Numbered from the stretch's first letter, positions 10,502-34,641 are shown. The stretch is DNA of 38,965 bases from Stramenopiles sp. TOSAG23-3 (GCA_900128585.1 LT642186.1:1-38965), one strand, 5' to 3'. Notes: generated by a model not told the origin, from the sequence alone. Translations and numbers: made by a program.

Positions 10502-11263
10502 ATGGGGGACTATGGGAGCGACTTTACAAAGGCGTTGCAGACCCAACTTAGGCAGTTGATACACTACGCGAAGGGAGCTGACGCAACGCTGCAGCGGGAG
10601 GTGGCAGAAAAATTAGCAAATGAAGCGGTCAAGCCTGATCGACAGGAACAAATTGTAGAATTAGGTGGTCTTGAATTGCTCCTGCCTCTGGTCCAGTCAA
10701 GCGACAAGGAAGTCCAACGGTTAGCAGCGCACGCCTTGGCGAACCTTTCAGTCAACGCAGAAAACCAGATTATAATGGCAAATGAAGGGGGAGTTGAAAT
10801 GTTAATTGAGCTTTTGGAAACGGCAAACCCTCACATACAGAGGCAGGCGGCGAAAGCGCTGGCAAATTTAGGAGTCAATTCAGATAATAAAGCGACAATT
10901 GCCCAGAAAGGGGGGATCGCCCCACTGATACACCTGACTACGAACGCGCCAGACGCTGTAAAAATCGAAACCGTTGCAGCTTTGGCCAACTTGGCTGTCA
11001 ACGATGATAACGAAGTTTCAATAGGTGAAGATGGTGGTTTGCAGCCCATTTTGAAGTGCGCATCTTCGCGCAATTCAGAACTTCAGGCGCAGGCTTGCAG
11101 GGCATTGCGAAACCTGTCCGTATGTGGCCGTAACAAGGAGATAATTTTATCCATGAATGGTGATGCTTTGCTCGAGACACTTACCAACAGCAACAATGAT
11201 CGAATACGATCGCAGGCGACTAGGGCACTCAACAATTTAGGGGGTAGTAGGAACAGGAAATAA
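10502..11263 (+). CDS. Armadillo-repeat protein, Vac8-like
   Basis: About 5 ARM repeats of about 41 aa: 'VQRLAAHALANLSVN', 'IQRQAAKALANLGVN', 'VAALANLAVN', 'QACRALRNLSV', each with GG-hydrophobic-x-x-L segments. Confidence 0.9.
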   Translation: MGDYGSDFTKALQTQLRQLIHYAKGADATLQREVAEKLANEAVKPDRQEQIVELGGLELLLPLVQSSDKEVQRLAAHALANLSVNAENQIIMANEGGVEMLIELLETANPHIQRQAAKALANLGVNSDNKATIAQKGGIAPLIHLTTNAPDAVKIETVAALANLAVNDDNEVSIGEDGGLQPILKCASSRNSELQAQACRALRNLSVCGRNKEIILSMNGDALLETLTNSNNDRIRSQATRALNNLGGSRNRK

Positions 11264-18762: not shown

Positions 18763-18958
18763 GAGAGCAGGGAAACAATCAAAATGCATTTTTAAATACA
18801 TATCTTTTTATATAATTTTTCATTAAACATGTATCATGTGTCATAGAAGTGAAAATGAGATCGGTGGTAAACGTTTTTTCGACTAGTCAGAAACAACCGC
18901 TCTGACTTTCACATTTTCCTGCGCATATAAGAGTCAATACACACGTCATGATATTAAA

Positions 18959-21652
18959 TCAGTAACCGCCCATCCCCGCATCGAAAATTACACCCATGGG
19001 CATCCAAATATTTTTACACTCTGTTGAGTTGTATAAGAATTCGACGCCTTGGCCCTGTTCGTCGACCATCCAGTCTCGTTTGCAACCGTAATTTACCCAA
19101 GAGCGCTTCATGTTGCCTGCTGAAGCATGTTCAACGAAGCGACTGCCCTCTGCGTCACCGAAATACCACATGGCTTCAATGTTTTGGTGCTCAACTAAGT
19201 ATTTTGTCAGGTGGTTGCGGTTGCCAGTAATTATGTTTACAACCCCAGCAGGGACATCCGAAGTTTCAAATACCTGGTACAGATCCGTTGCACTCAATGG
19301 GTAGGCTTCGCTTGGAACAATGATAATTGTGTTGCCGCGTACTACAGCTGGCGCAAACAACGATACAAAACCGAGCAACGGGTACTCGTCCGGGCATGCG
19401 ATGCCAATGGTGCCTACAGGTTCGTTGATCTTCACTGTTGCGCCGTAAAAGGATGTCTCCTGGACTTCCCCGCCGTACTTGTCGGCGTACGCCGCCCAGT
19501 AGAACAATCGGTTGATAGAGGCTGAGACTTCCGCGTTTGCTGACTCGATAGTTCTGCCGGTCTGGGCTGCAATTCGCCCTGCAATTTCATCGAAGCGCAG
19601 CTCCAAATTTTCTGCAATGTAATAGACGATCTGGGCGCGATTATGGGCCGCACGTTTACCCCATCCTGGAGCCGCTTTGTACGCGCACTCTACAGCGTTG
19701 CGAATGTCTTTTCTGTTTCCTTCCGACACTTGCCCAAGCAATGTCCCCGAACCTTCCGCAAGGACTGGGCGGCAGTAAGTTGCGTCCGGCCGCTTTTGTT
19801 TGCCCCCATAGAACATTTTCAACGTTCTGTCAATGGGAGGCATGTGAGTGACAGCTGTGTTGGTCGTCCCGCCTGGAGTCCCCGGCGCTGGGCCGGGAAG
19901 CATCGTTGGTAAAGTTGGTGCTACGGGTGTCATTGTGCCGAATCCTTTTACCCCTGGGTCGTTCTCGGGGTACTCGGGCCTCGCACGCTCCATCCATGCT
20001 GGTTTGACGTACTCGTACAGCCCTTCGCGGCCACCGTCGCGGCCAAAGCCAGATTCGCGGAAACCTCCAAAGCCAGATGCAGCGTCGAACATGTTGTGTC
20101 CATTGATCCAAACAGTTCCAGCTTTGATCCCCAGGGCAACTTCCATGGCCAAGGTCATTTTTTCTGTCCACACGGATGCCCCCAATCCATACCGGGTATT
20201 GTTTGCCAATGCAATGGCTTCTTTTGGCGTCCGAAACGTTTGAACGGCCAACACGGGGCCAAACACTTCCTCCTGTACGATCGTAGACGTCGATTCAACG
20301 TTCAGGACCAACGTTGGGGGGAAGAAAAGCTCGCCCTCTGGGAGGTTGGGGGGGTTTGCGGCGCCATTGCAGGCTTGATAAACTTCGGCCCCTTCGTCCC
20401 GGGCCGTTTGCACATGGTGGGACACATCTTTCCAGTGGGACAACTGGACCAGGGGGCCCATGTCGATGCATTTGTCCAGACTGTGGCCTAATCGCAAAGT
20501 CTTCATTCTTGCCTTTAATTTGCCGACAAGCTTCTTGTAGATGGGCTCCTGGACTAGCAGCCGGGATCCGGCGCTACAGACCTGCCCTTGGTTGAACCAA
20601 ACGGCATTGACAACCCCCTCTACCACAGAGTCTAAATCCGCTGATTCGAACACGCACACCGGCGATTTTCCACCTAGTTCCAGTGAAATTTTCTTTCCAG
20701 TCCCGGCCAAATTGCGGCGGAGTAGCGCGCCGATGCCAGTGCTGCCAGTGAAGGCGACTTTGTCTACGTCGGGATGCTCTGCAAGGCTCGACCCCATTCG
20801 GCCACCGCCTGTGACAACGTTAAATACCCCGGGGGGAAGGCCTGCTTCGGCGCATATTTCGGCGAACAGAAGGGCGGACAGGCGCGTGGGGGTCGCCGGC
20901 TTGAGTACAACGGTGTTGCCCATTGCCAGCGCGGGCGCTACTTTCCATGTGGTGAGCATCAACGGGAAATTCCACGGGACAATCCCACCAATGACACCCA
21001 CAGGTTTCCAGCCCTGCATTTCTTTCGGGGCGAGTTGGGCCCAGCCGGCGTAGTGGTACAACCAACGCGCTACGATAGGCACGTCTGCATCGCGGGTTTC
21101 GCGCACGGTTTTGCCGTTGTCGAGCGCTTCTACGACAGCAATCAGGCGCGCATGCTTTTGCACGTGCCTCGCCAGCGAGTACATATGCCTTGCCCGTGCG
21201 TGCGGTGGCAACGCCGCCCACTTGACCTGGGCTCGTTTGGCGGCCTGGACCGCTACGTCTACGTCTTCGGCCGTTCCTTCCGTGGTGCTGGAGAGGACTT
21301 CCCCCGTAGCGGGCGCCGTAGTCTGGTAGTGGCGGCGTTCGCCGGCGGGCTTGTACCACTCGTTGTTGATAAAGTGGCCAAAGTCACGCCCGTGGCTGTC
21401 AAGCCAAGCGTTTGCAGCTGCTGGGGACTCTGGGGCTGGACCATACTCCAACGTCGAGAAGACGCGGGCAACGGTGCTTGTGGACTGCTTTCCATCGCTT
21501 CCCATAAGTGCGTACTTTGGCTTGTGCGCGCCATTGGACGCGGGGGGTTCGGCAGCGGGTGCGGCCTGCTGCTTCTGCTTCGCCGCAGCCGCCGTTTTTT
21601 GACGCTTCTCACCAGCGGTATTTGAGTTGCTTTTCTTGTTTTTCTTTGCCAT
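18959..21652 (-). CDS. ALDH16-type aldehyde dehydrogenase (full ALDH domain plus second truncated Rossmann-like ALDH domain)
   Basis: EYGPAPES N-terminal motif, PWNFP, FTGSTGIG, ELGGKSP (catalytic Glu), NQGQVCSAG (catalytic Cys), EEVFGP. Second domain 'DRTLKMFYGGKQKRPD...YWAAYADKYGG...PAGVVNIITG' lacks a catalytic subdomain. Confidence 0.93.
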   Translation of the reverse strand: MAKKNKKSNSNTAGEKRQKTAAAAKQKQQAAPAAEPPASNGAHKPKYALMGSDGKQSTSTVARVFSTLEYGPAPESPAAANAWLDSHGRDFGHFINNEWYKPAGERRHYQTTAPATGEVLSSTTEGTAEDVDVAVQAAKRAQVKWAALPPHARARHMYSLARHVQKHARLIAVVEALDNGKTVRETRDADVPIVARWLYHYAGWAQLAPKEMQGWKPVGVIGGIVPWNFPLMLTTWKVAPALAMGNTVVLKPATPTRLSALLFAEICAEAGLPPGVFNVVTGGGRMGSSLAEHPDVDKVAFTGSTGIGALLRRNLAGTGKKISLELGGKSPVCVFESADLDSVVEGVVNAVWFNQGQVCSAGSRLLVQEPIYKKLVGKLKARMKTLRLGHSLDKCIDMGPLVQLSHWKDVSHHVQTARDEGAEVYQACNGAANPPNLPEGELFFPPTLVLNVESTSTIVQEEVFGPVLAVQTFRTPKEAIALANNTRYGLGASVWTEKMTLAMEVALGIKAGTVWINGHNMFDAASGFGGFRESGFGRDGGREGLYEYVKPAWMERARPEYPENDPGVKGFGTMTPVAPTLPTMLPGPAPGTPGGTTNTAVTHMPPIDRTLKMFYGGKQKRPDATYCRPVLAEGSGTLLGQVSEGNRKDIRNAVECAYKAAPGWGKRAAHNRAQIVYYIAENLELRFDEIAGRIAAQTGRTIESANAEVSASINRLFYWAAYADKYGGEVQETSFYGATVKINEPVGTIGIACPDEYPLLGFVSLFAPAVVRGNTIIIVPSEAYPLSATDLYQVFETSDVPAGVVNIITGNRNHLTKYLVEHQNIEAMWYFGDAEGSRFVEHASAGNMKRSWVNYGCKRDWMVDEQGQGVEFLYNSTECKNIWMPMGVIFDAGMGGY

Positions 21653-22474
21653 TTCGTCTCGGTGTAGTGTTTCAGGTTGGTATCGGTTCTCAGCTAAAAC
21701 TAATGCTTGCTTGGTTCCTGCTTGACATAACGTTTTTTATTCTGTTGCCTTACTTTCGATCCTGTCACAATCGTATCTTGTTGTACTCACAAACATGCGT
21801 TGTTAACATCATTCATATAAACCATTATTCCCCTCGCTCAAGATACATTTATTAATTAGTTAGTGGTGGTGACCAAATCATCTTCTTTCTTCTTCCTCCC
21901 CCTTCAATAATAATCCTCCTCCTATTATATAAAATATCTATATTGGGATAAAGGGGGAATCCAAACGTAAGGTTTATTATTATTATATAATTTCCTTTTT
22001 TTGGAATCTTAGTATAATAATATGGAAGGTGAAAAAGTTTTATTATTAATATAATTGACCTACTGTTCCTTATTTATATGTTCTAGTTGAGTTGAGTTGA
22101 AGAGATTGATTGATGAGCCTGCCTTGATGACTTGATGACTTGAGCCTGCCTTGAGCCTCTCCTTGAGTTGAGCTTTTATTTAATTTAGATTTATATATTC
22201 TATAATAGAACTATATAACTTGGAACTTGGATGGATTGAAGAAGAATGAAGAAGTGGATGGTGTCACAGTTGGTAGGTTTAATTAAAAGAGAGACAATGT
22301 ACATTCTATTATTATTCAACAATTTATTAGTCTACATTTATTTATACCTTGTGGTACTTCGTTTTCTTGCCTTTTCCTTTCTTGCTTTTATTAGGGGCGG
22401 ATGATGTGGCTGGTGGTGATGGTAGTGGAGAAAGATATATTAAAATATATATATAGGAAGAGAGCATATCATTA

Positions 22475-22547
22475 TACCAAGGGTAGTTCAATATTAATTA
22501 ATAAATAATACGATGGAAAATAAATTGAGAATCCTTCTTGTTTCTCT
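22475..22547 (+). repeat. 73-bp exact dispersed repeat, copy 1
   Basis: taccaagggtagttcaatattaattaataaataatacgatggaaaataaattgagaatccttcttgtttctct is identical to 38893-38965. Confidence 0.95.
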
Positions 22548-22600
22548 CACTCAACTCAACACACAACAACAACAACAACAACAACACAACATCCATGGTT

Positions 22601-22644
22601 GGGCGGGCGCGGGAGGGGGGAGGGGGAGGGGAGGGGAGAGGGGG
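22601..22644 (+). promoter_or_regulatory. G-run tract with G-quadruplex potential upstream of DERA
   Basis: gggcgggcgcgggaggggggagggggaggggaggggagaggggg has more than 4 runs of G3+ with short loops, about 210 bp before the DERA ATG, in otherwise AT-rich DNA. Confidence 0.5.
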
Positions 22645-22852
22645 CTTTATAGCGATAGGCGACTACTTGGAATCTATACGATTACTACAATGTATACATA
22701 ACATAAACACATACGTACCTCTTCGATGATAATTTAAACAAGACGTTAACTACATTCATTGCTAAAACATTTGAAATTACATAAGTTTAGCGCACTGTTG
22801 CCAATTCAAGATACATTCAGATTTACGTACAAAAAGAGACTTCTCTATCACC

Positions 22853-23866
22853 ATGGCTGCTATGGCTTCCGACTCCCTCCATCACGTCCACCAACCACGG
22901 AACACACCCCGCCCACTAGACATGGCGTGGGTCAACTCGATCGATATCAACCTCCCTGCGTGCAACCTCCGGGCTGCAACACACATGAAGCGTCGGTCGG
23001 TCAAGAAAGAGTACCAAGCGGCGTGGTTGCTCCGGGCGGTAACCTGCATTGACTTGACTACACTTTCTGGATCGGACACGCCGTCCAACGTTTCGCGAAT
23101 GTGCTTCAAAGCTGTCAACCCTATCCGTAGCGACCTAGTGACCTCGTTGGGGGTAGACCCGTCGCTTGTGCGGACTGGCGCCGTTTGTGTGTACCCAGAA
23201 ATGGTGCCCGCTGCTGTTACGGCCCTCGAGAATGCCAAAGCAACAGACAAATTAGCAAGGGCTGTGCCCATTGCGTCTGTCGCGACAGGGTTCCCTGCTG
23301 GACAAACACCGCTGAAACAGCGCCTCGAAGAGATTTCCAAGGCTATTGAATATGGCGCCACGGAGATCGATATGGTTATTAAAAGAGAGTTCGTTCTTTC
23401 TGGGAGATGGCAAGACTTGTACGACGACGTGAAAGCATGCCGCGAAGCATGCGGCGAAAGGGCCCACTTAAAGACGATTTTAGCGGTTGGTGACTTAGGT
23501 ACGTTTACGAACATTGCCAAGGCAAGTGTCGTCGCAATGCTGGCCGGCTCCGATTTCATTAAAACGTCAACGGGGAAAGAAAGCGTGAACGCGACGTTCC
23601 CCATTGCCCTTGTGATGATTCGTATGATACGTGAGTACTATGAACGTTTCCAAGTTAAGGTTGGCTTCAAGCCTGCCGGCGGTATCCGAAGCGCGAAAGA
23701 TTGCCTGAGCTGGCTTTCTCTCATGAAGGATGAGCTGGGGGACGAATGGACCACCCCAGAGTTGTTCCGTTTAGGAGCAAGTAGTTTGCTTGGGGACATT
23801 GAGAGGCAATTGTATCATCACGTGCATGGGAAATATGCCGCTGGGCACCAATTTCCCATGGCATAG
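22853..23866 (+). CDS. DERA: Deoxyribose-phosphate aldolase (long, human-DERA-like type)
   Basis: 'SVKKEYQAAWLLRAVTCIDLTTL', AVCVYP, ATGFPAGQ, GATEIDMVI, FIKTSTGK (Schiff-base Lys), GFKPAGGI, RLGASSLL. Confidence 0.96.
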   Translation: MAAMASDSLHHVHQPRNTPRPLDMAWVNSIDINLPACNLRAATHMKRRSVKKEYQAAWLLRAVTCIDLTTLSGSDTPSNVSRMCFKAVNPIRSDLVTSLGVDPSLVRTGAVCVYPEMVPAAVTALENAKATDKLARAVPIASVATGFPAGQTPLKQRLEEISKAIEYGATEIDMVIKREFVLSGRWQDLYDDVKACREACGERAHLKTILAVGDLGTFTNIAKASVVAMLAGSDFIKTSTGKESVNATFPIALVMIRMIREYYERFQVKVGFKPAGGIRSAKDCLSWLSLMKDELGDEWTTPELFRLGASSLLGDIERQLYHHVHGKYAAGHQFPMA

Positions 23867-24184
23867 GGAATGGAAAAAAAAAGAATGGGAGAAACGGTAG
23901 GAGCTGGGGGAAAGGACGTGAATGGTTACCTAGACCCAGGACGGGCCAGTGCTTCGGTTGGTTTCGACGACTTTTACAAATACAAGCGGGACCACAGATT
24001 AACGTACTAAAGGGTCTGGGCGAGGGATCTTCATCCTTTACCAATTTACCTGCAAGAGTAGAACTCTTGAGTAAAAAAATAAAATTATATAATTATGCTT
24101 TAATAAATTATATATTTGCTTTAATAATAATGTTACTTCCGTACATCAATAATGCTTAATTGCTCCACCTCCGACAACTTATGC

Positions 24185-24338
24185 TTTACTTTCCTACAAG
24201 TTAGGATTAGGGTATGAGGAAGCTAAATTTATAATTACTTAAAAAATAACAGCCAATTTTTTCTTGTTTTTACTTTCCTTAGGATTAGGGTATGAGGAAG
24301 CTAAATTTAATTACTTATAAATAACAGCCAATTTTCTT
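24185..24338. repeat. Imperfect tandem duplication, two copies about 84 bp apart, between convergent DERA and TPR-IQ genes
   Basis: tttactttcc...ttaggattagggtatgaggaagctaaattt...aattactta...aataacagccaatttt occurs twice (starts near 24185 and 24269). Confidence 0.9.
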
Positions 24339-31164: not shown

Positions 31165-34100
31165 CTACGGGCAATGTTTCCCTGGCCAGATGACGTTCGC
31201 CAGTGTACTTGCAGCTTCCGCGTTGGACACCAGCTGCACGCCCTGCTCCGTGATCATTTTTCCATGCTTGTCCACAAACACGAGTTTCGGTAAACCCTGT
31301 ACATTGTACTTCTCTCCCAGGCGTTCCCTTGCGTCTACCTCATTATATGGAACTGCCGCCCAAGGCATCTCTTCATAGTATGTCTTGAATTTCCCGGCAG
31401 TGTGGCAGTTTGACACGAAAACTATTTGTAGGCCGTGGCCGGCTTTCTTCAACTCGGAGTACGCTTCGATTAGTTTTGGGGTAAATTTACGGCAGGGGGG
31501 GCACCAATTTGCAGAAAAGTATATGCCAACAACATCGCTTTTGCCGAGAACTTCGCTGGTTGGCTTTTCCGCCATGCTTGCCCCTTCCAACAATGTACTG
31601 CCAAAGCCTTTCGAGGCATCCGTACCAGGGGGCAAACTGCCGGGCAACGGTTTCTTTTTCTTTCTTCTGCGATTCAACAGGGTCAACTCCTTTCCGGCAT
31701 TTTTCATACCAGGCTCATTCCCAACAATTTTTTCCAACCCTTGCTGTTTTATTTTACGACGGATTCGTTTCATCTCGTCGTGCATTGATTCATCCATCAA
31801 AGGCAATATGGCTTGCTTTAAATTGCCGTACATGCCGCCGATTAAACTTTCCTGCTGCGCCAACATTTTCTTAACTCGCTGCCGCTCTTTGGGGGCTTCA
31901 AAACAAGCGGGGCAGTTCTCGTTGATTACTGGAAGCTTTGCTTCATAGGCGAACTTCTTTAGTTGAGACTCTCGGGTGTAAGCAAATGGTCGAATAACTC
32001 TGATGTCTCCTGCGCCTATGGTGTAATTCGCTTTCATTGTGCGAAGCTGCCCATTGTGAAACGCTGACATGACGAAGCTTTCTGCAAGGTCGTCCAAATG
32101 CTGGGCCAGGACGAGGACATTGTAACCTTCCTTGCGGCAACACGAATACAAAGCCCCACGTTTCATCCTGGAGCAATAGGCACAAATAGATGTTCCCTCC
32201 ATTTCCGTCTTTGCCCTGTCCATAATTTTCTCCGATAGATAAAAATAGGGTATTCCCAGGCTTTTCATGTAAGCAATCAACGGGCTTGGGTCAAACGCAT
32301 CGGTTCCAGGGTCCACAGTCGCAGCAGCAAGCTCGAACTTGATCGGGGACCGTTTTTGTAAGTTGTGCAGGACGTGGAGAAGGGTCAAGGAGTCTTTGCC
32401 CCCCGACAATCCCAACAAAAGTCGATCGCCCGGTTGAACCATTTTCCATTGCGCCATTGCTTGGCCGACGGAGCGGTAAATTTTTTTGGGCGGTTTTGGA
32501 AACAAAGTTGCTCTGTTGTTTTTGGCCGACTGCAAGGCCGCATTTGAGGCTGCCTTGGACAAGTTCGCCGCGCCGGTCGATTCTCTTTTCCCGCTTGCAG
32601 AACGCAGGGGATATTTTTCCTTTTTTTTCTTCTTTCCGTTCGAATACGAGTGGGCTTTGGTCCCGCTTCCCGCGCCCGATTCAGGCTTCCCCCCCACCTC
32701 TTCCCATTTTCTTTTTCTCACCTGGCGGTTTTCGCCCGTGTCCGCCCCACGGCTGTACTGCCGTGGATACAGGCCGCCTGCGACCTCCTCCAAAGAAGTT
32801 AGAGACCCAATTTCTTCGGCCAAGTTCGTTTTGCTTTCAAGGGCATCCGTGGCTTCGGAAGGCAGCACGCACCATCGTAAGCCCGATTCCACCATGTGTG
32901 TTTGGTCTATGCCTAACCCTTCTTTTCCTGCGTTGCTTCGGGCTGCGTCAAACAACCCGTCGGCTTCTTTCTTTGCGCGGCTCATCCACTCCTTTGCGTC
33001 TGGGAGATGACTTCCACCAACAGCAGCATTCACCAAACTGTCGGTATCAAATGCGTGCGAAAGCCATTTTCGCTCGACAAACTTCGTAATTCTCGACCGA
33101 TGTTTCCATTCACCAGTTTTGTGATTGAAGCGATAAAAGGGGAGAAGCTTCCATCCCTTTGTCGCAATATCCCCAATAGCATGGGTGATGTACAAAACTT
33201 CTTCCTCTGCCAAAAAGTATGGAAAGCTCAAACGGCTAAAACCAGGGCGCAAATATTCGTTCTTCTCGATGCACGCAGCCTCAAACCTCTGGGCCGTGCT
33301 GTAATCAATGCTCAGCAATGCTTGCCCGTACGGCCCGGCACACTGGCAACCGCCCCGACTCTGGATTCCATACAGATCATTCAGCAAGGCGCAAACGTAA
33401 TTGTAGTGAAGAAAACGCTTTTCGCCTCCACACTCGATCAAAAACGACAGAATTGGTAGTCGCTGAACCGTAGTGCTTCCTAGAATATGAACTTGCGGAA
33501 ACGTCTCCAGCACTTCAGTGACTAACTTCCAATTCCTTTCTTCGAGCTTATGAATCAACGCCGTTCCTACTTTCTGTTTCAAATGAAACGCCAAACCAGC
33601 CCGGGCGCTCCCTAATATGTTCGGCGTCCCCCCCTCCTCCCGCTCTTCACGGTTTGCCAAGTACCGATGGTCACGGTCCGTTACGAAAAACACCGTCCCG
33701 CCCCCTGGCTGTTCTGGCACGGCGTTGGACAGAAGGCGCTTTTTTACAACCAAAATGCCTGGGGACCCGGGGCCCCCGACCATTTTGTGCGGTGACAAGA
33801 ACACGGCGTCCTTATATACAAATGCCCGTCCTTCACCTGGCACGACGGGATTCATGTCTATCTTCATGTATGGTCCCGCGGTTGCGCAGTCCCAGAAGGC
33901 TAGACCCCCTGCGCGATGCATCATTTCCGTGATCTCGTGGGCGGGCGCAACGATCCCGGTAATGTTTGAGGCCATGGTAAACGAGCCAATCTTTAGCTTT
34001 CTGCCTTTGTATTTTTCTAATTTCAATTTCAAGTCGACGACATCAAACGCACCATCAGCGTTTTCTTTCACATGAATGACGTCCGCATGGGACTCCCGCC

Positions 34101-34641
34101 ACGGCAAAATATTGGAGTGGTGCTCATGGGGGCCCACAAAGACCACGGCACGCTCGCTTTCGGGGGGCGTAGTGCCGTCTTTCTGGGTGGGGGCGTGGTT
34201 CAGCCCCAGGATCGCCACCAATTTGTTGATAGCTCCGGTACATCCGCTCCCAACAAAGAGCACAACGTCCTCTTTCGTGTTGCAATTCAATGACTGGGAT
34301 ATTATTTGTCTTGCCTCGTGGCGAAAGCATGTTGACTGCAGCCCAGTAATCGACGTGGTGGTATGCGTGTTTCCGTACAACGGCATTACTTGGTTCTGAA
34401 GATACTTTTCCACAAAGGAAAGGTTCCGGCCGCTGGCTGTCCAGTCCGCATACAAGATTTGGCGTTTGCCATAAGGCCCCAAAAACGTCGAACCATGCCC
34501 TATGATACTGTCATGAATTCGTCTCACAAACTCTTGTGACTGACTGCTACCTTCGTCCCCGCTTGCCCGTTTAGTCTCCAACCCAGACCCTGTTGGGTCA
34601 ACGCGGCCTCCCAACTCTTCGTAAAAGGAGCGGTGGTACAT
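31165..34641 (-). CDS. Three-domain fusion: class-V PLP cysteine desulfurase-like + TtcA-type tRNA 2-thiocytidine synthase + nucleoredoxin/tryparedoxin-type thioredoxin
   Basis: Desulfurase: YADWTASG, HEHHSN, SPHK (33784-33795), RGGCQCAGPY. TtcA: SGGKDS (32389-32406), CAYC (32173-32184), HLDD, CPAC (31903-31914). Trx: YFSANWCPPC (WCPPC 31492-31506), IVFVS, MPWAAVPY, GLPKL. One uninterrupted 1158-aa ORF. Confidence 0.92.
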   Translation of the reverse strand: MYHRSFYEELGGRVDPTGSGLETKRASGDEGSSQSQEFVRRIHDSIIGHGSTFLGPYGKRQILYADWTASGRNLSFVEKYLQNQVMPLYGNTHTTTSITGLQSTCFRHEARQIISQSLNCNTKEDVVLFVGSGCTGAINKLVAILGLNHAPTQKDGTTPPESERAVVFVGPHEHHSNILPWRESHADVIHVKENADGAFDVVDLKLKLEKYKGRKLKIGSFTMASNITGIVAPAHEITEMMHRAGGLAFWDCATAGPYMKIDMNPVVPGEGRAFVYKDAVFLSPHKMVGGPGSPGILVVKKRLLSNAVPEQPGGGTVFFVTDRDHRYLANREEREEGGTPNILGSARAGLAFHLKQKVGTALIHKLEERNWKLVTEVLETFPQVHILGSTTVQRLPILSFLIECGGEKRFLHYNYVCALLNDLYGIQSRGGCQCAGPYGQALLSIDYSTAQRFEAACIEKNEYLRPGFSRLSFPYFLAEEEVLYITHAIGDIATKGWKLLPFYRFNHKTGEWKHRSRITKFVERKWLSHAFDTDSLVNAAVGGSHLPDAKEWMSRAKKEADGLFDAARSNAGKEGLGIDQTHMVESGLRWCVLPSEATDALESKTNLAEEIGSLTSLEEVAGGLYPRQYSRGADTGENRQVRKRKWEEVGGKPESGAGSGTKAHSYSNGKKKKKEKYPLRSASGKRESTGAANLSKAASNAALQSAKNNRATLFPKPPKKIYRSVGQAMAQWKMVQPGDRLLLGLSGGKDSLTLLHVLHNLQKRSPIKFELAAATVDPGTDAFDPSPLIAYMKSLGIPYFYLSEKIMDRAKTEMEGTSICAYCSRMKRGALYSCCRKEGYNVLVLAQHLDDLAESFVMSAFHNGQLRTMKANYTIGAGDIRVIRPFAYTRESQLKKFAYEAKLPVINENCPACFEAPKERQRVKKMLAQQESLIGGMYGNLKQAILPLMDESMHDEMKRIRRKIKQQGLEKIVGNEPGMKNAGKELTLLNRRRKKKKPLPGSLPPGTDASKGFGSTLLEGASMAEKPTSEVLGKSDVVGIYFSANWCPPCRKFTPKLIEAYSELKKAGHGLQIVFVSNCHTAGKFKTYYEEMPWAAVPYNEVDARERLGEKYNVQGLPKLVFVDKHGKMITEQGVQLVSNAEAASTLANVIWPGKHCP

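What the first reader, a model, noticed from the sequence alone, without database searches (positions are those of the whole stretch)
18959..23866. Head-to-head ALDH16 and DERA pair: eukaryotic deoxyribose-catabolism mini-cluster
Seen: an ALDH16-type dehydrogenase (-) and DERA (+) are divergent across a 1200-bp spacer (21653-22852). Known: DERA cleaves deoxyribose-5-P to glyceraldehyde-3-P and acetaldehyde, an ALDH substrate; the physiological substrate of ALDH16 is unresolved. From memory, unverified here: deoC sits beside ALDH16-type genes in many alphaproteobacteria and actinobacteria, and human ALDH16A1 and DERA co-occur in interactome data. Inference: co-regulated, possibly channelled pathway for using prey-derived DNA sugar while removing acetaldehyde. 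Linkage in a eukaryote would be independent evidence for ALDH16 function.
Basis: partly seen in the sequence, partly recalled or inferred. Interest (0 to 1): 0.78.

Follow-up and report, generated by a model that had tools for sequence, protein, structure and literature searches.

The report
Linked DERA and ALDH16 enzyme pair
A marine protist keeps the genes for deoxyribose-phosphate aldolase and the orphan enzyme ALDH16 side by side, and comparison with bacteria indicates the two are an ancient, probably physically docked, two-enzyme unit, which gives ALDH16 a testable job.

Summary
An 897-aa two-domain ALDH16 (18959-21652, minus) and a 337-aa long-type DERA (22853-23866, plus) lie head to head across 1200 bp in a eukaryotic contig. 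Both keep their catalytic residues, and both occur as intron-free contigs in RNA libraries of three studies.

The pairing is not chance. Among bacterial ALDH16 loci with enough upstream DNA, 61 of 72 have this DERA subtype upstream on the same strand. In even samples of two bacterial classes, ALDH16 and long-type DERA occur in exactly the same 15 of 200 and 15 of 151 genomes. Natural DERA-ALDH16 fusion proteins exist.

In both gene trees the eukaryotic sequences form one clade next to the same Anaerolineae-type bacterial genes, which suggests the two-gene operon entered eukaryotes as a unit.

A complex prediction passed: score 0.76, best of 3 controls 0.00. It docks the N-terminal extension specific to long-type DERA onto ALDH16's N-terminal peptide, near the mouth of the aldehyde tunnel.

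Most likely mechanism: deoxyribose-5-P is cleaved to glyceraldehyde-3-P and acetaldehyde, and ALDH16 oxidises the acetaldehyde on the spot.

Still untested: the substrate, co-regulation, and adjacency in relatives (same-contig evidence only). Earlier notes of this scan had already seen deoC-ALDH16 adjacency in bacteria. I found no paper on it.

The parts
18959..21652 (-). ALDH16 coding sequence, 897 aa, no intron
   Evidence: ORF. Pfam Aldedh in two stretches. 6mvr matches both domains. Asn228, Glu325 and Cys359 are invariant in the 44-sequence alignment A3. They align to Asn165/Glu261/Cys295 of 6MVR as named in PMC12041015.
21479..21652 (-). Lys/Ala/Gln-rich N-terminal extension of ALDH16 (residues 1-58). 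It has no counterpart in bacterial ALDH16 and its role is unknown.
   Evidence: Bacterial hits start at query residues 41-65. RNA contigs reach 21704-21707, and no upstream ATG lies between there and 21652.
21431..21478 (-). Conserved ALDH16 N-terminal peptide (residues 59-74, ...EYGPAP). Predicted docking element for DERA.
   Evidence: Interface residues 59-65 and 67-74. Y70 and G71 are invariant and P72, A73, P74 at least 90% conserved in A3. The peptide lies ahead of the part that aligns to ALDH2, which starts at residue 94.
20000..21373 (-). ALDH catalytic domain (residues 94-551)
   Evidence: Aligns to human ALDH2 residues 23-488, E 1.6e-104.
18992..19837 (-). ALDH16-specific C-terminal pseudo-ALDH domain (residues 606-887)
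   Evidence: Aligns to 6mvr residues 498-766. Alignment A1 of this domain retrieves ALDH16 genes at 330-503 bits, against 135 bits or less for ordinary ALDHs.
21653..22852 (.). Divergent intergenic spacer. AT-rich, with a (CAA)n run and a G-rich run at about 22555-22647. Presumed to hold promoters for both genes.
   Evidence: Sequence. No tRNA or Rfam match. RNA contigs of three studies cover neither 21708-22768 nor any joint across it, while a DNA contig runs on to 22006 (a weak hint only).
22853..23866 (+). Long-type DERA (deoxyribose-phosphate aldolase) coding sequence, 337 aa, no intron
   Evidence: ORF. Pfam DeoC. Alignment to E. coli DERA. D173, K237 and K273 are invariant in A2; they align to positions I recall as E. 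coli D102, K167 and K201.
22898..23035 (+). N-terminal extension specific to long-type DERA (residues 16-61). Predicted docking element for ALDH16.
   Evidence: Conserved from bacteria to animals (A2). Absent from E. coli DERA, whose alignment starts at residue 58. Absent from short-type DERAs, which match the profile only from about position 49. Holds 25 of the 35 predicted interface residues.
18870..21707 (-). Extent of ALDH16 sequence found in RNA-library contigs
   Evidence: Runs X11, X14 and X18 (three studies): contigs 18870-21704, 18870-21707 and 18870-21682, collinear with the DNA.
22769..24090 (+). Extent of DERA sequence found in RNA-library contigs
   Evidence: X11 covers 22769-24090, X14 covers 22829-24017 and X18 covers 22829-24024, all collinear.

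Best explanation
The two genes encode the two halves of one conserved catabolic unit. DERA cleaves 2-deoxyribose-5-phosphate, which comes from deoxynucleoside breakdown, into glyceraldehyde-3-phosphate and acetaldehyde. ALDH16 is catalytically intact here. It docks on DERA and oxidises the acetaldehyde to acetate with NAD(P)+. This removes a toxic product that also inactivates DERA, and it pulls a reversible cleavage forward.

Docking is predicted to use two elements that define the subfamilies: the roughly 45-residue N-terminal extension of long-type DERA, and the N-terminal EYGPAP peptide of ALDH16. This would place DERA near the mouth of the aldehyde tunnel.

The pair arose as a bacterial deoC-ALDH16 operon. 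It most likely entered an early eukaryote as a unit from an Anaerolineae-like donor. In this protist lineage the two genes have stayed neighbours, now head to head around a shared promoter region.

Shown: gene identities, intact catalytic residues, operon conservation, co-occurrence, fusions, congruent trees, and presence in RNA libraries. Inferred: the substrate, physical binding (a model only), co-transfer, and co-regulation.
For: (1) Identity and intact active sites.

(2) Seen from ALDH16. The 80 best bacterial loci (of at least 596) come from several phyla. In 53, DERA lies directly upstream on the same strand (gap -31 to +290 bp). In 7 the gap is 539-938 bp, and the four intervening ORFs with a confident Pfam match are unrelated small genes (PIN, NUDIX, PD-(D/E)XK, DUF559). 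In 1 the gap is 4.8 kb. 11 have none although at least 1000 bp of upstream DNA is available, and 8 cannot be tested.

(3) Seen from DERA. Of 55 metagenome loci, ALDH16 is adjacent in 22 and lies 1.3-1.5 kb away in 10. 9 have none despite at least 1000 bp of room: three are the window's own close relatives, two have a DERA match split into pieces as if by introns, two match at 66% identity and are of unknown origin, and two look bacterial. 14 cannot be tested.

(4) Co-occurrence. In 200 evenly drawn alphaproteobacterial genomes (one unpublished genome left out), ALDH16 and long-type DERA are in the same 15, always adjacent, and in none of the other 185 (Fisher p 7e-23). Of the 19 genomes with a short-type DERA, 18 lack ALDH16. 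In 151 genomes of the class of an Anaerolineae genome, the two are again in the same 15, and in 12 of those on one contig and strand. A genome whose ALDH16 has no DERA neighbour still holds one long-type DERA elsewhere.

(5) No other neighbour is conserved: the best other family occurs in 9 of 61 loci. Among the ten recurrent families I scanned, four belong to the deo pathway: thymidine phosphorylase in 7 loci, purine nucleoside phosphorylase in 4, adenosine deaminase in 4 and phosphopentomutase in 4.

(6) Natural fusions of DeoC plus two-domain ALDH16, 1054-1184 aa (P0295, P0293, P0298, P0301, P0303). Also fusions of about 800 aa joining DERA to an ordinary ALDH.

(7) Trees. Eukaryotic DERA forms one clade (SH-aLRT 99), sister (99) to five Anaerolineae-type genes plus L042. 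Eukaryotic ALDH16 forms one clade (100) inside a clade (100) with the same bacteria. AU tests reject a eukaryote plus alphaproteobacteria clade for both genes (p 0.014 and 0.013).

(8) Complex prediction with ALDH16 residues 59-560 plus whole DERA. Score 0.76, best of 3 controls 0.00. That mark was reached by 51 of 78 solved complexes and 2 of 108 mismatched pairs; for eukaryotes, by 39 of 65 solved pairs with no like complex among older structures and 2 of 126 unrelated pairs. The runs agree in at least 92% of contacts and the partner's pLDDT is at least 88. The ALDH16 contacts align to ALDH2 positions 115/119, 282-292 and 454-455. From memory, these flank tunnel-lining residues.

(9) Linkage in a relative. 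The ALDH16 at 78% identity and the DERA at 85% identity are both recorded on contigs of 22,465 bp, and other cluster members on contigs of 33,034 bp.

(10) The ALDH16 tunnel-neck Phe (F528) is kept, and Loktanella ALDH16 oxidises hydrophobic aldehydes (PMC12041015, passages).
Against: No enzyme assay exists for any ALDH16 with acetaldehyde. The only reported substrates are medium-chain aldehydes such as hexanal.

The predicted interface residues are not more conserved than the rest of either protein (13 of 29 against 173 of 473, p 0.43; 12 of 35 against 113 of 287, p 0.59).

The C-terminal domain of ALDH16 had to be left out of the complex job because of the size limit.

The arrangement here is head to head, not the co-directional bacterial order, so at least one inversion is needed, and the neighbourhood could instead be a secondary re-association.

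Adjacency and orientation in relatives were not seen directly. Loci of the relative at 80% identity lack upstream DNA, and they do not share the window's genes on the far side of DERA.

In three animals the two genes lie on scaffolds of different size, so they are unlinked there.

11 of 72 testable bacterial ALDH16 genes have no DERA neighbour.

Both trees are quick searches with SH-aLRT support only.
Confidence: 0.72

Rival explanations
1. The partnership is real, but ALDH16 acts on a different aldehyde. It could oxidise the other DERA product, glyceraldehyde-3-P, as a non-phosphorylating GAPN-like enzyme would. Or it could oxidise open-chain deoxyribose-5-P, or longer aldol products that DERA forms from acetaldehyde.
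For: The operon, co-occurrence and fusion evidence does not identify the substrate. The only reported activity of an ALDH16 is on medium-chain aldehydes such as hexanal, not acetaldehyde (PMC12041015).
Against: The review describes an aromatic box and a Phe neck, with no phosphate-binding residues, and the Phe is kept here. DERA is also fused to ordinary single-domain ALDHs. According to earlier scan notes it pairs with aldehyde:ferredoxin oxidoreductase in anaerobes (unchecked). Convergence of this kind fits a small generic aldehyde better.
Confidence: 0.15
2. ALDH16 serves mainly as a non-catalytic scaffold or regulator of DERA, for stability, localisation or allostery. That is the role mammalian ALDH16A1 must have if it works with DERA at all, because it lacks catalytic residues.
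For: The vertebrate enzyme is described as a pseudoenzyme with a proposed protein-interaction role (PMC12041015). The predicted docking uses N-terminal elements that lie outside the active site. ALDH16A1 and DERA both co-purified with AAV from HEK-293 cells (PMC4554548).
Against: In this window, and in all 44 aligned sequences including frog and lamprey, Asn228, Glu325 and Cys359 are invariant. That shows selection on catalysis. The Loktanella ALDH16 is an active enzyme.
Confidence: 0.06
3. In this eukaryote the adjacency has no present function. The two genes simply ended up, or stayed, next to each other. They are transcribed independently and need not be co-regulated.
For: The 1.2-kb spacer is typical of divergent pairs in this contig (857 and 1553 bp). 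No shared motif or co-expression was shown. In three animals (Nematostella, Sycon, Spea) the genes sit on scaffolds of different size. Genes on the far side of DERA are not conserved in the relative at 80% identity.
Against: For a pair that is an obligate operon in bacteria, the chance that the two are immediate neighbours among thousands of genes is very small (a rough estimate, not computed). A relative at 78-85% identity has both genes on one contig, seen in two separate records. This holds even though synteny on the other side of DERA has broken down.
Confidence: 0.07

Closest known systems
Bacterial ALDH16 of Loktanella sp. (PDB 6MVR/6MVS/6MVT/6MVU; Liu and Tanner 2019, known to me only through the review PMC12041015)
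   Same: Same two-domain architecture. Aligns over both domains (E 5.8e-241). The catalytic Asn/Glu/Cys and the neck Phe are conserved.
   Different: The window protein has a 58-residue basic N-terminal extension and a longer interdomain linker. The passages I read on the Loktanella enzyme mention no partner or pathway.
Bacterial deoC-ALDH16 two-gene operon and its fused form (for example P0295, a 1164-aa protein of a Rhodospirillales MAG)
   Same: The same two subfamilies, long-type DERA and ALDH16, and the same strict partnership. The eukaryotic genes nest next to the Anaerolineae-type operon genes.
   Different: The bacterial genes are co-directional, with DERA first and gaps of a few bases. 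Here the genes are head to head, 1.2 kb apart, and each is found as its own RNA contig.
Human DERA and ALDH16A1
   Same: Animal sequences fall in the same eukaryotic clades for both genes; human itself was not in my trees. The N-terminal extension of DERA and the EYGPAP peptide of ALDH16 are conserved in the animal sequences aligned.
   Different: Vertebrate ALDH16A1 is reported to lack the catalytic residues (review). The frog and lamprey sequences in A3 keep them. The two genes are unlinked in the three animals I could compare.
DmpFG / BphIJ aldolase-dehydrogenase complexes that channel acetaldehyde (recalled from the literature, not read here)
   Same: The same logic: an aldolase that releases acetaldehyde is bound to a dehydrogenase that consumes it at once.
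   Different: The protein families are unrelated: a metal-dependent 4-hydroxy-2-oxovalerate aldolase and a CoA-acylating dehydrogenase. Here it is a Schiff-base class I aldolase and a non-acylating ALDH-superfamily enzyme.
E. coli deo operon (deoCABD)
   Same: DERA acts in deoxynucleoside catabolism. Thymidine phosphorylase, purine nucleoside phosphorylase and phosphopentomutase genes sometimes flank the bacterial pairs.
   Different: E. coli DERA is the short type, without the N-terminal extension. From memory, its operon holds no aldehyde dehydrogenase. Of the 19 short-type-DERA genomes sampled, 18 lack ALDH16.

Membership tests
ALDH16 (cd07111-type two-domain aldehyde dehydrogenase) | N-terminal ALDH catalytic domain with the Asn/Glu/Cys triad | tested here: met
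   Asn228, Glu325 and Cys359 align to Asn165/Glu261/Cys295 of 6MVR. They are invariant in A3.
ALDH16 (cd07111-type two-domain aldehyde dehydrogenase) | An extra C-terminal Rossmann-like pseudo-ALDH domain of about 280 residues | tested here: met
   Residues 606-887 align to 6mvr residues 498-766 at 254.9 bits. Pfam finds a second Aldedh stretch.
ALDH16 (cd07111-type two-domain aldehyde dehydrogenase) | NAD(P)+-dependent aldehyde oxidation; physiological substrate | not testable with these tools
   Needs an enzyme assay.
Class I deoxyribose-5-phosphate aldolase (DeoC/DERA, PF01791) | TIM-barrel DeoC fold with the Schiff-base Lys and its Lys/Asp partners | tested here: met
   Pfam DeoC. K237, K273 and D173 are invariant in A2 and align to the E. 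coli catalytic positions (the E. coli numbering is recalled).
Long-type (ALDH16-associated) DERA subfamily | A conserved N-terminal extension of about 45 residues ahead of the barrel | tested here: met
   Residues 16-61 align with bacterial and animal long-type DERAs. Short-type DERAs match the profile only from about position 49.
Bacterial deoC-ALDH16 operon | DERA directly upstream of ALDH16 on the same strand, in one transcription unit | tested here: not met
   Here the genes are divergent and 1200 bp apart, with separate RNA contigs. The genes are related to the operon genes, but this is not an operon.
DmpFG/BphIJ-type channelling aldolase-dehydrogenase complex | A class II metal-dependent aldolase plus a CoA-acylating dehydrogenase | tested here: not met
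   The Pfam families found are DeoC and Aldedh. The resemblance is one of logic only.
Heteromeric DERA-ALDH16 complex (proposed here) | Direct binding of the two proteins | tested here: inconclusive
   The model supports binding: score 0.76, best control 0.00. Natural fusions exist. A model is not a measurement, and the C-terminal domain of ALDH16 was not included.

The most novel reading that the evidence does not exclude
DERA and ALDH16 form an ancient obligate heteromeric enzyme, conserved from bacteria to animals, that channels acetaldehyde. It is held together by the DERA N-terminal extension and the ALDH16 N-terminal peptide. It entered eukaryotes once, as an operon from an Anaerolineae-like bacterium. 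In mammals the catalytically dead ALDH16A1 persists as a DERA-binding subunit. That would tie the unexplained ALDH16A1 association with gout and urate to deoxynucleoside and purine catabolism.
Probability: 0.3. Interest if true: 0.9.

Novelty: new variant of a known kind. Interest (0 to 1): 0.8.

Why it matters
ALDH16 is an orphan enzyme. A 2025 review still lists its physiological role as unknown and the vertebrate form as a pseudoenzyme of unknown function (PMC12041015, passages).

The evidence here names one partner (long-type DERA), one pathway (deoxyribose-5-P cleavage) and a specific docking surface. All of these can be tested with standard biochemistry.

It also suggests that two animal genes, DERA and ALDH16A1, share a single bacterial operon origin. 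A protist that still keeps them linked gives a natural system, and a compact intron-free gene pair, for studying them.

My searches found no paper linking the two functionally. Interactome supplements were closed and may already list the human pair.

Tried and rejected
(1) My script suggested that L042, L036 and L055 carry in-frame DERA-ALDH16 fusions. This was an artefact. L042 has a stop at 10940-10942 and two separate ORFs. In L036 the two genes lie in different frames. L055 was not re-checked. Real fusions were then found among database proteins.

(2) The 'Artemia franciscana' DERA-ALDH16 protein P0287 looked like an animal fusion. In both trees it sits beside an Opitutia bacterium (SH-aLRT 99), so it is bacterial contamination.

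(3) Direct test of adjacency in close relatives. Loci L001-L005 lack DNA upstream of DERA. What remains is the same-contig-length evidence.

(4) Synteny on the far side. The window's four neighbouring proteins have no homologue in any of the 55 metagenome loci.

(5) Test for higher conservation of the predicted interface: negative.

(6) No whole genome is held for the window and there are no earlier notes on it. The organism stays unidentified. The ALDH16 tree places it with the clade holding Salpingoeca rosetta (SH-aLRT 96). My 'choano' labels for unnamed EukProt entries were guesses. The Atlas look-up showed only that the CobW neighbour is eukaryotic.

(7) RNA contigs do not cover 21708-22768. 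That is a gap in cover only, not proof that the spacer is silent, and contig depths cannot rank expression.

(8) No tRNA or Rfam family in the window.

(9) The Liu and Tanner 2019 paper is not held, so I relied on the review.

(10) The complex job used only ALDH16 residues 59-560. The full pair exceeds the 1000-residue limit.

Full report
WHAT IS THERE. The window is a eukaryotic contig with long intron-free ORFs on both strands. They encode EF-hand, armadillo, IQ/TPR, PQ-loop, Band 7, CobW and ClpB-type proteins.

At the stated coordinates lie an 897-aa ORF (18959-21652, minus) and a 337-aa ORF (22853-23866, plus). They are head to head, with 1200 bp between the start codons.

The first ORF is a true ALDH16:
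- It aligns to the Loktanella ALDH16 structure 6mvr over both the catalytic domain and the family-specific C-terminal domain (E 5.8e-241).
- It keeps Asn228, Glu325 and Cys359, which correspond to Asn165/Glu261/Cys295 of 6MVR as named in the review PMC12041015 (passages read).
- It keeps the tunnel-neck Phe (F528).

The second ORF is a DERA:
- It has the Schiff-base lysine and its partners (K237, K273, D173), which are invariant in a 44-sequence alignment.
- It is a 'long' type, with about 45 conserved residues ahead of the barrel that E. coli DERA lacks.

Contigs from three metatranscriptome studies contain ALDH16 (18870 to about 21705) and DERA (22769 or 22829 to about 24020-24090). They are collinear with the DNA, so there are no introns, and each annotated ATG is the first one in its contig. 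The spacer holds no tRNA or Rfam family. Its length is ordinary for divergent pairs in this contig.

IS THE PAIRING MORE THAN CHANCE? One adjacency proves little, so I looked elsewhere.

Starting from DERA in metagenomes, 55 loci:
- ALDH16 follows on the same strand directly in 22, and 1.3-1.5 kb away in 10.
- 9 have no ALDH16 despite at least 1000 bp of room. Three are the window's own close relatives, where ALDH16 would lie on the other, missing side. Two have a DERA match split into pieces as if by introns. Two match at 66% identity and are of unknown origin. Two look bacterial.
- 14 cannot be tested.

Starting from the ALDH16 C-terminal domain in one genome per bacterial species, there are at least 596 loci. 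Among the best 80:
- 53 have DERA directly upstream, 7 at 539-938 bp and 1 at 4.8 kb. Four of the intervening ORFs have a confident Pfam match, to unrelated small genes (PIN, NUDIX, PD-(D/E)XK, DUF559).
- 11 have none, and 8 cannot be tested.
- The loci span Chloroflexota, Gemmatimonadota, Pseudomonadota, Acidobacteriota, Bacteroidota, Verrucomicrobiota, Myxococcota, SAR324 and Bacillota.

No third gene is conserved; the best other family occurs in 9 of 61 loci. Among the ten recurrent families I scanned, four are deo-pathway enzymes: thymidine phosphorylase, purine nucleoside phosphorylase, adenosine deaminase and phosphopentomutase.

Unbiased samples give the cleanest result:
- In 200 evenly drawn genomes of the class of a Sneathiella genome (one unpublished genome left out), ALDH16 and long-type DERA occur in the same 15 genomes, always adjacent with DERA first. 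Neither occurs in the other 185 (Fisher p 7e-23).
- Short-type DERAs occur in 19 genomes, and 18 of those lack ALDH16.
- In 151 genomes of the class of an Anaerolineae genome, the same strict pattern holds (15 and the same 15). In 12 of them the genes are on one contig and strand.
- A genome whose ALDH16 lacks a DERA neighbour has a long-type DERA elsewhere.

Natural proteins fuse DeoC to a complete two-domain ALDH16. There are five, of 1054-1184 aa, one of them from a Rhodospirillales MAG. Others fuse DERA to an ordinary ALDH or to phosphopentomutases.

ORIGIN OF THE EUKARYOTIC GENES.
- In the DERA tree (66 rows), the eukaryotic sequences form one clade (SH-aLRT 99). It is sister (99) to five Anaerolineae-type operon genes plus metagenome locus L042.
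- In the ALDH16 tree (70 rows), the eukaryotes form one clade (100) inside a clade (100) with the same bacteria and a few more Chloroflexota.
- AU tests reject a eukaryote plus alphaproteobacteria grouping for both genes (p 0.014 and 0.013), so a mitochondrial origin is unlikely.

The congruence suggests the operon was transferred as a unit. The direction bacterium to eukaryote is the more economical one, because the operon form is shared by many phyla.

Caveats: these are quick searches with SH-aLRT support only. Nine unnamed DERA rows count as eukaryotic only because they cluster with the sponge Amphimedon. Eukaryote sampling is dominated by animals.

The window's ALDH16 groups with the clade that holds Salpingoeca rosetta (96). 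This hints at, but does not establish, a choanoflagellate-like organism.

LINKAGE IN EUKARYOTES.
- Relatives at 78% (ALDH16) and 85% (DERA) identity are recorded on contigs of identical length, 22,465 bp. Other members of the same clusters are on contigs of 33,034 bp. So the genes share a contig there too, but distance and orientation are unseen.
- In Nematostella, Sycon and Spea the two genes lie on scaffolds of different size.
- The relative at 80% identity has lost the window's genes on the far side of DERA, so local gene order is not generally frozen.

DO THE PROTEINS TOUCH? A complex prediction with ALDH16 residues 59-560 and whole DERA passed.
- Score 0.76, best of 3 controls 0.00. That mark was reached by 51 of 78 solved complexes and 2 of 108 mismatched pairs. 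For eukaryotes it was reached by 39 of 65 solved pairs with no like complex among older structures and by 2 of 126 unrelated pairs.
- The runs agree in at least 92% of contacts, and the partner's pLDDT is at least 88.
- No similar complex appears among solved structures by sequence search, so a pass from memory seems unlikely.
- The interface joins the N-terminal extension of long-type DERA (25 of 35 contact residues lie in positions 31-61) to the N-terminal EYGPAP peptide of ALDH16 (residues 59-74). These are the very elements that set the two subfamilies apart from E. coli DERA and from ordinary ALDHs.
- Further ALDH16 contacts align to ALDH2 positions 115/119, 282-292 and 454-455. From memory, these flank tunnel-lining residues 120, 124, 292, 296, 457 and 459.
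- Against this, interface residues are not more conserved than the rest of either protein, and the C-terminal domain could not be included.
- In human cells, ALDH16A1 and DERA were both among the host proteins that co-purified with AAV (PMC4554548, passages). This is circumstantial.

MECHANISM. The most likely sequence is: deoxyribose-5-P is cleaved to glyceraldehyde-3-P and acetaldehyde by DERA, and the docked ALDH16 oxidises the acetaldehyde to acetate.
- The substrate is inferred from three things: the DERA reaction, the hydrophobic pocket of ALDH16, and the repeated independent coupling of DERA to aldehyde-oxidising enzymes (and the earlier scan notes).
- From memory, acetaldehyde-derived adducts inactivate E. 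coli DERA through Cys47. The equivalent Cys112 is invariant here, which would make a bound scavenger useful.

NOVELTY. Five literature searches found no paper that links the two functionally. The 2025 review calls the ALDH16 function unknown. Earlier notes of this scan had seen deoC beside (split) ALDH16 in two bacterial genomes. New here are the eukaryotic linkage, the strict co-occurrence with one DERA subtype, the congruent origin of both eukaryotic genes, and a specific docking model. Interactome supplements, which may list the human pair, were closed.

Noticed in passing
window 24201-24338: A repeat unit of about 78 bp occurs twice in tandem, with identical 31-base cores at 24201 and 24279, between the 3' ends of DERA and the IQ/TPR gene. 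In a marine metagenome run the summed contig depth over it is about 300-2000, against about 5 for the flanking genes, and many different sequences join on either side. So it is a widely dispersed repeat.
   Followed up: partly
window 31168-34641 (-): A single 1158-aa ORF combines a class-V aminotransferase (cysteine-desulfurase-like) domain, a PP-loop ATPase domain and a thioredoxin-like domain. This is an unusual three-part fusion that suggests a sulfur-relay or thiolation enzyme.
   Followed up: no
protein P0287 (nr: Artemia franciscana): This 747-aa DERA plus ALDH16 protein, filed under a brine shrimp, groups with an Opitutia bacterium in both gene trees (SH-aLRT 99). It is probably bacterial contamination of the animal data.
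   Followed up: yes
L057, L065, L082, L097, L107 (Anaerolineae-type loci), between DERA and ALDH16: Small ORFs of 124-172 aa are wedged between the two operon genes. Four have confident Pfam matches, each to a different family: PIN (L065), NUDIX (L082), PD-(D/E)XK (L097) and DUF559 (L107). The L057 ORF has no match. They look like independent insertions.
   Followed up: partly
L021-L025, L027, L028, L030: In one metagenome lineage a gene of about 1.2 kb sits between DERA and ALDH16. In L021, the one locus I scanned, it encodes a 397-aa GAF plus adenylate/guanylate cyclase protein.
   Followed up: partly
proteins P0311, P0330-P0368 and P0388-P0405: DERA is also found fused to PGM/PMM-type mutases (about 840 aa) and to PF01676 phosphopentomutase (about 609 aa). 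That joins consecutive steps of deoxyribose catabolism in one protein.
   Followed up: no
alignment A3: P0035 Lethenteron, P0076 Xenopus: Lamprey and frog ALDH16A1 keep the catalytic Asn, Glu and Cys. So the review's statement that vertebrate ALDH16 lacks the triad does not hold for all vertebrates.
   Followed up: partly
G346 contig C54:15317-16171 and G316 contig C1:38227-41660: In one Anaerolineae-class genome the ALDH16 C-terminal domain sits in an open frame of only 361 aa, so it may be a split ALDH16. In another the open frame is 1086 aa and runs towards DERA, so it may be a fusion.
   Followed up: no
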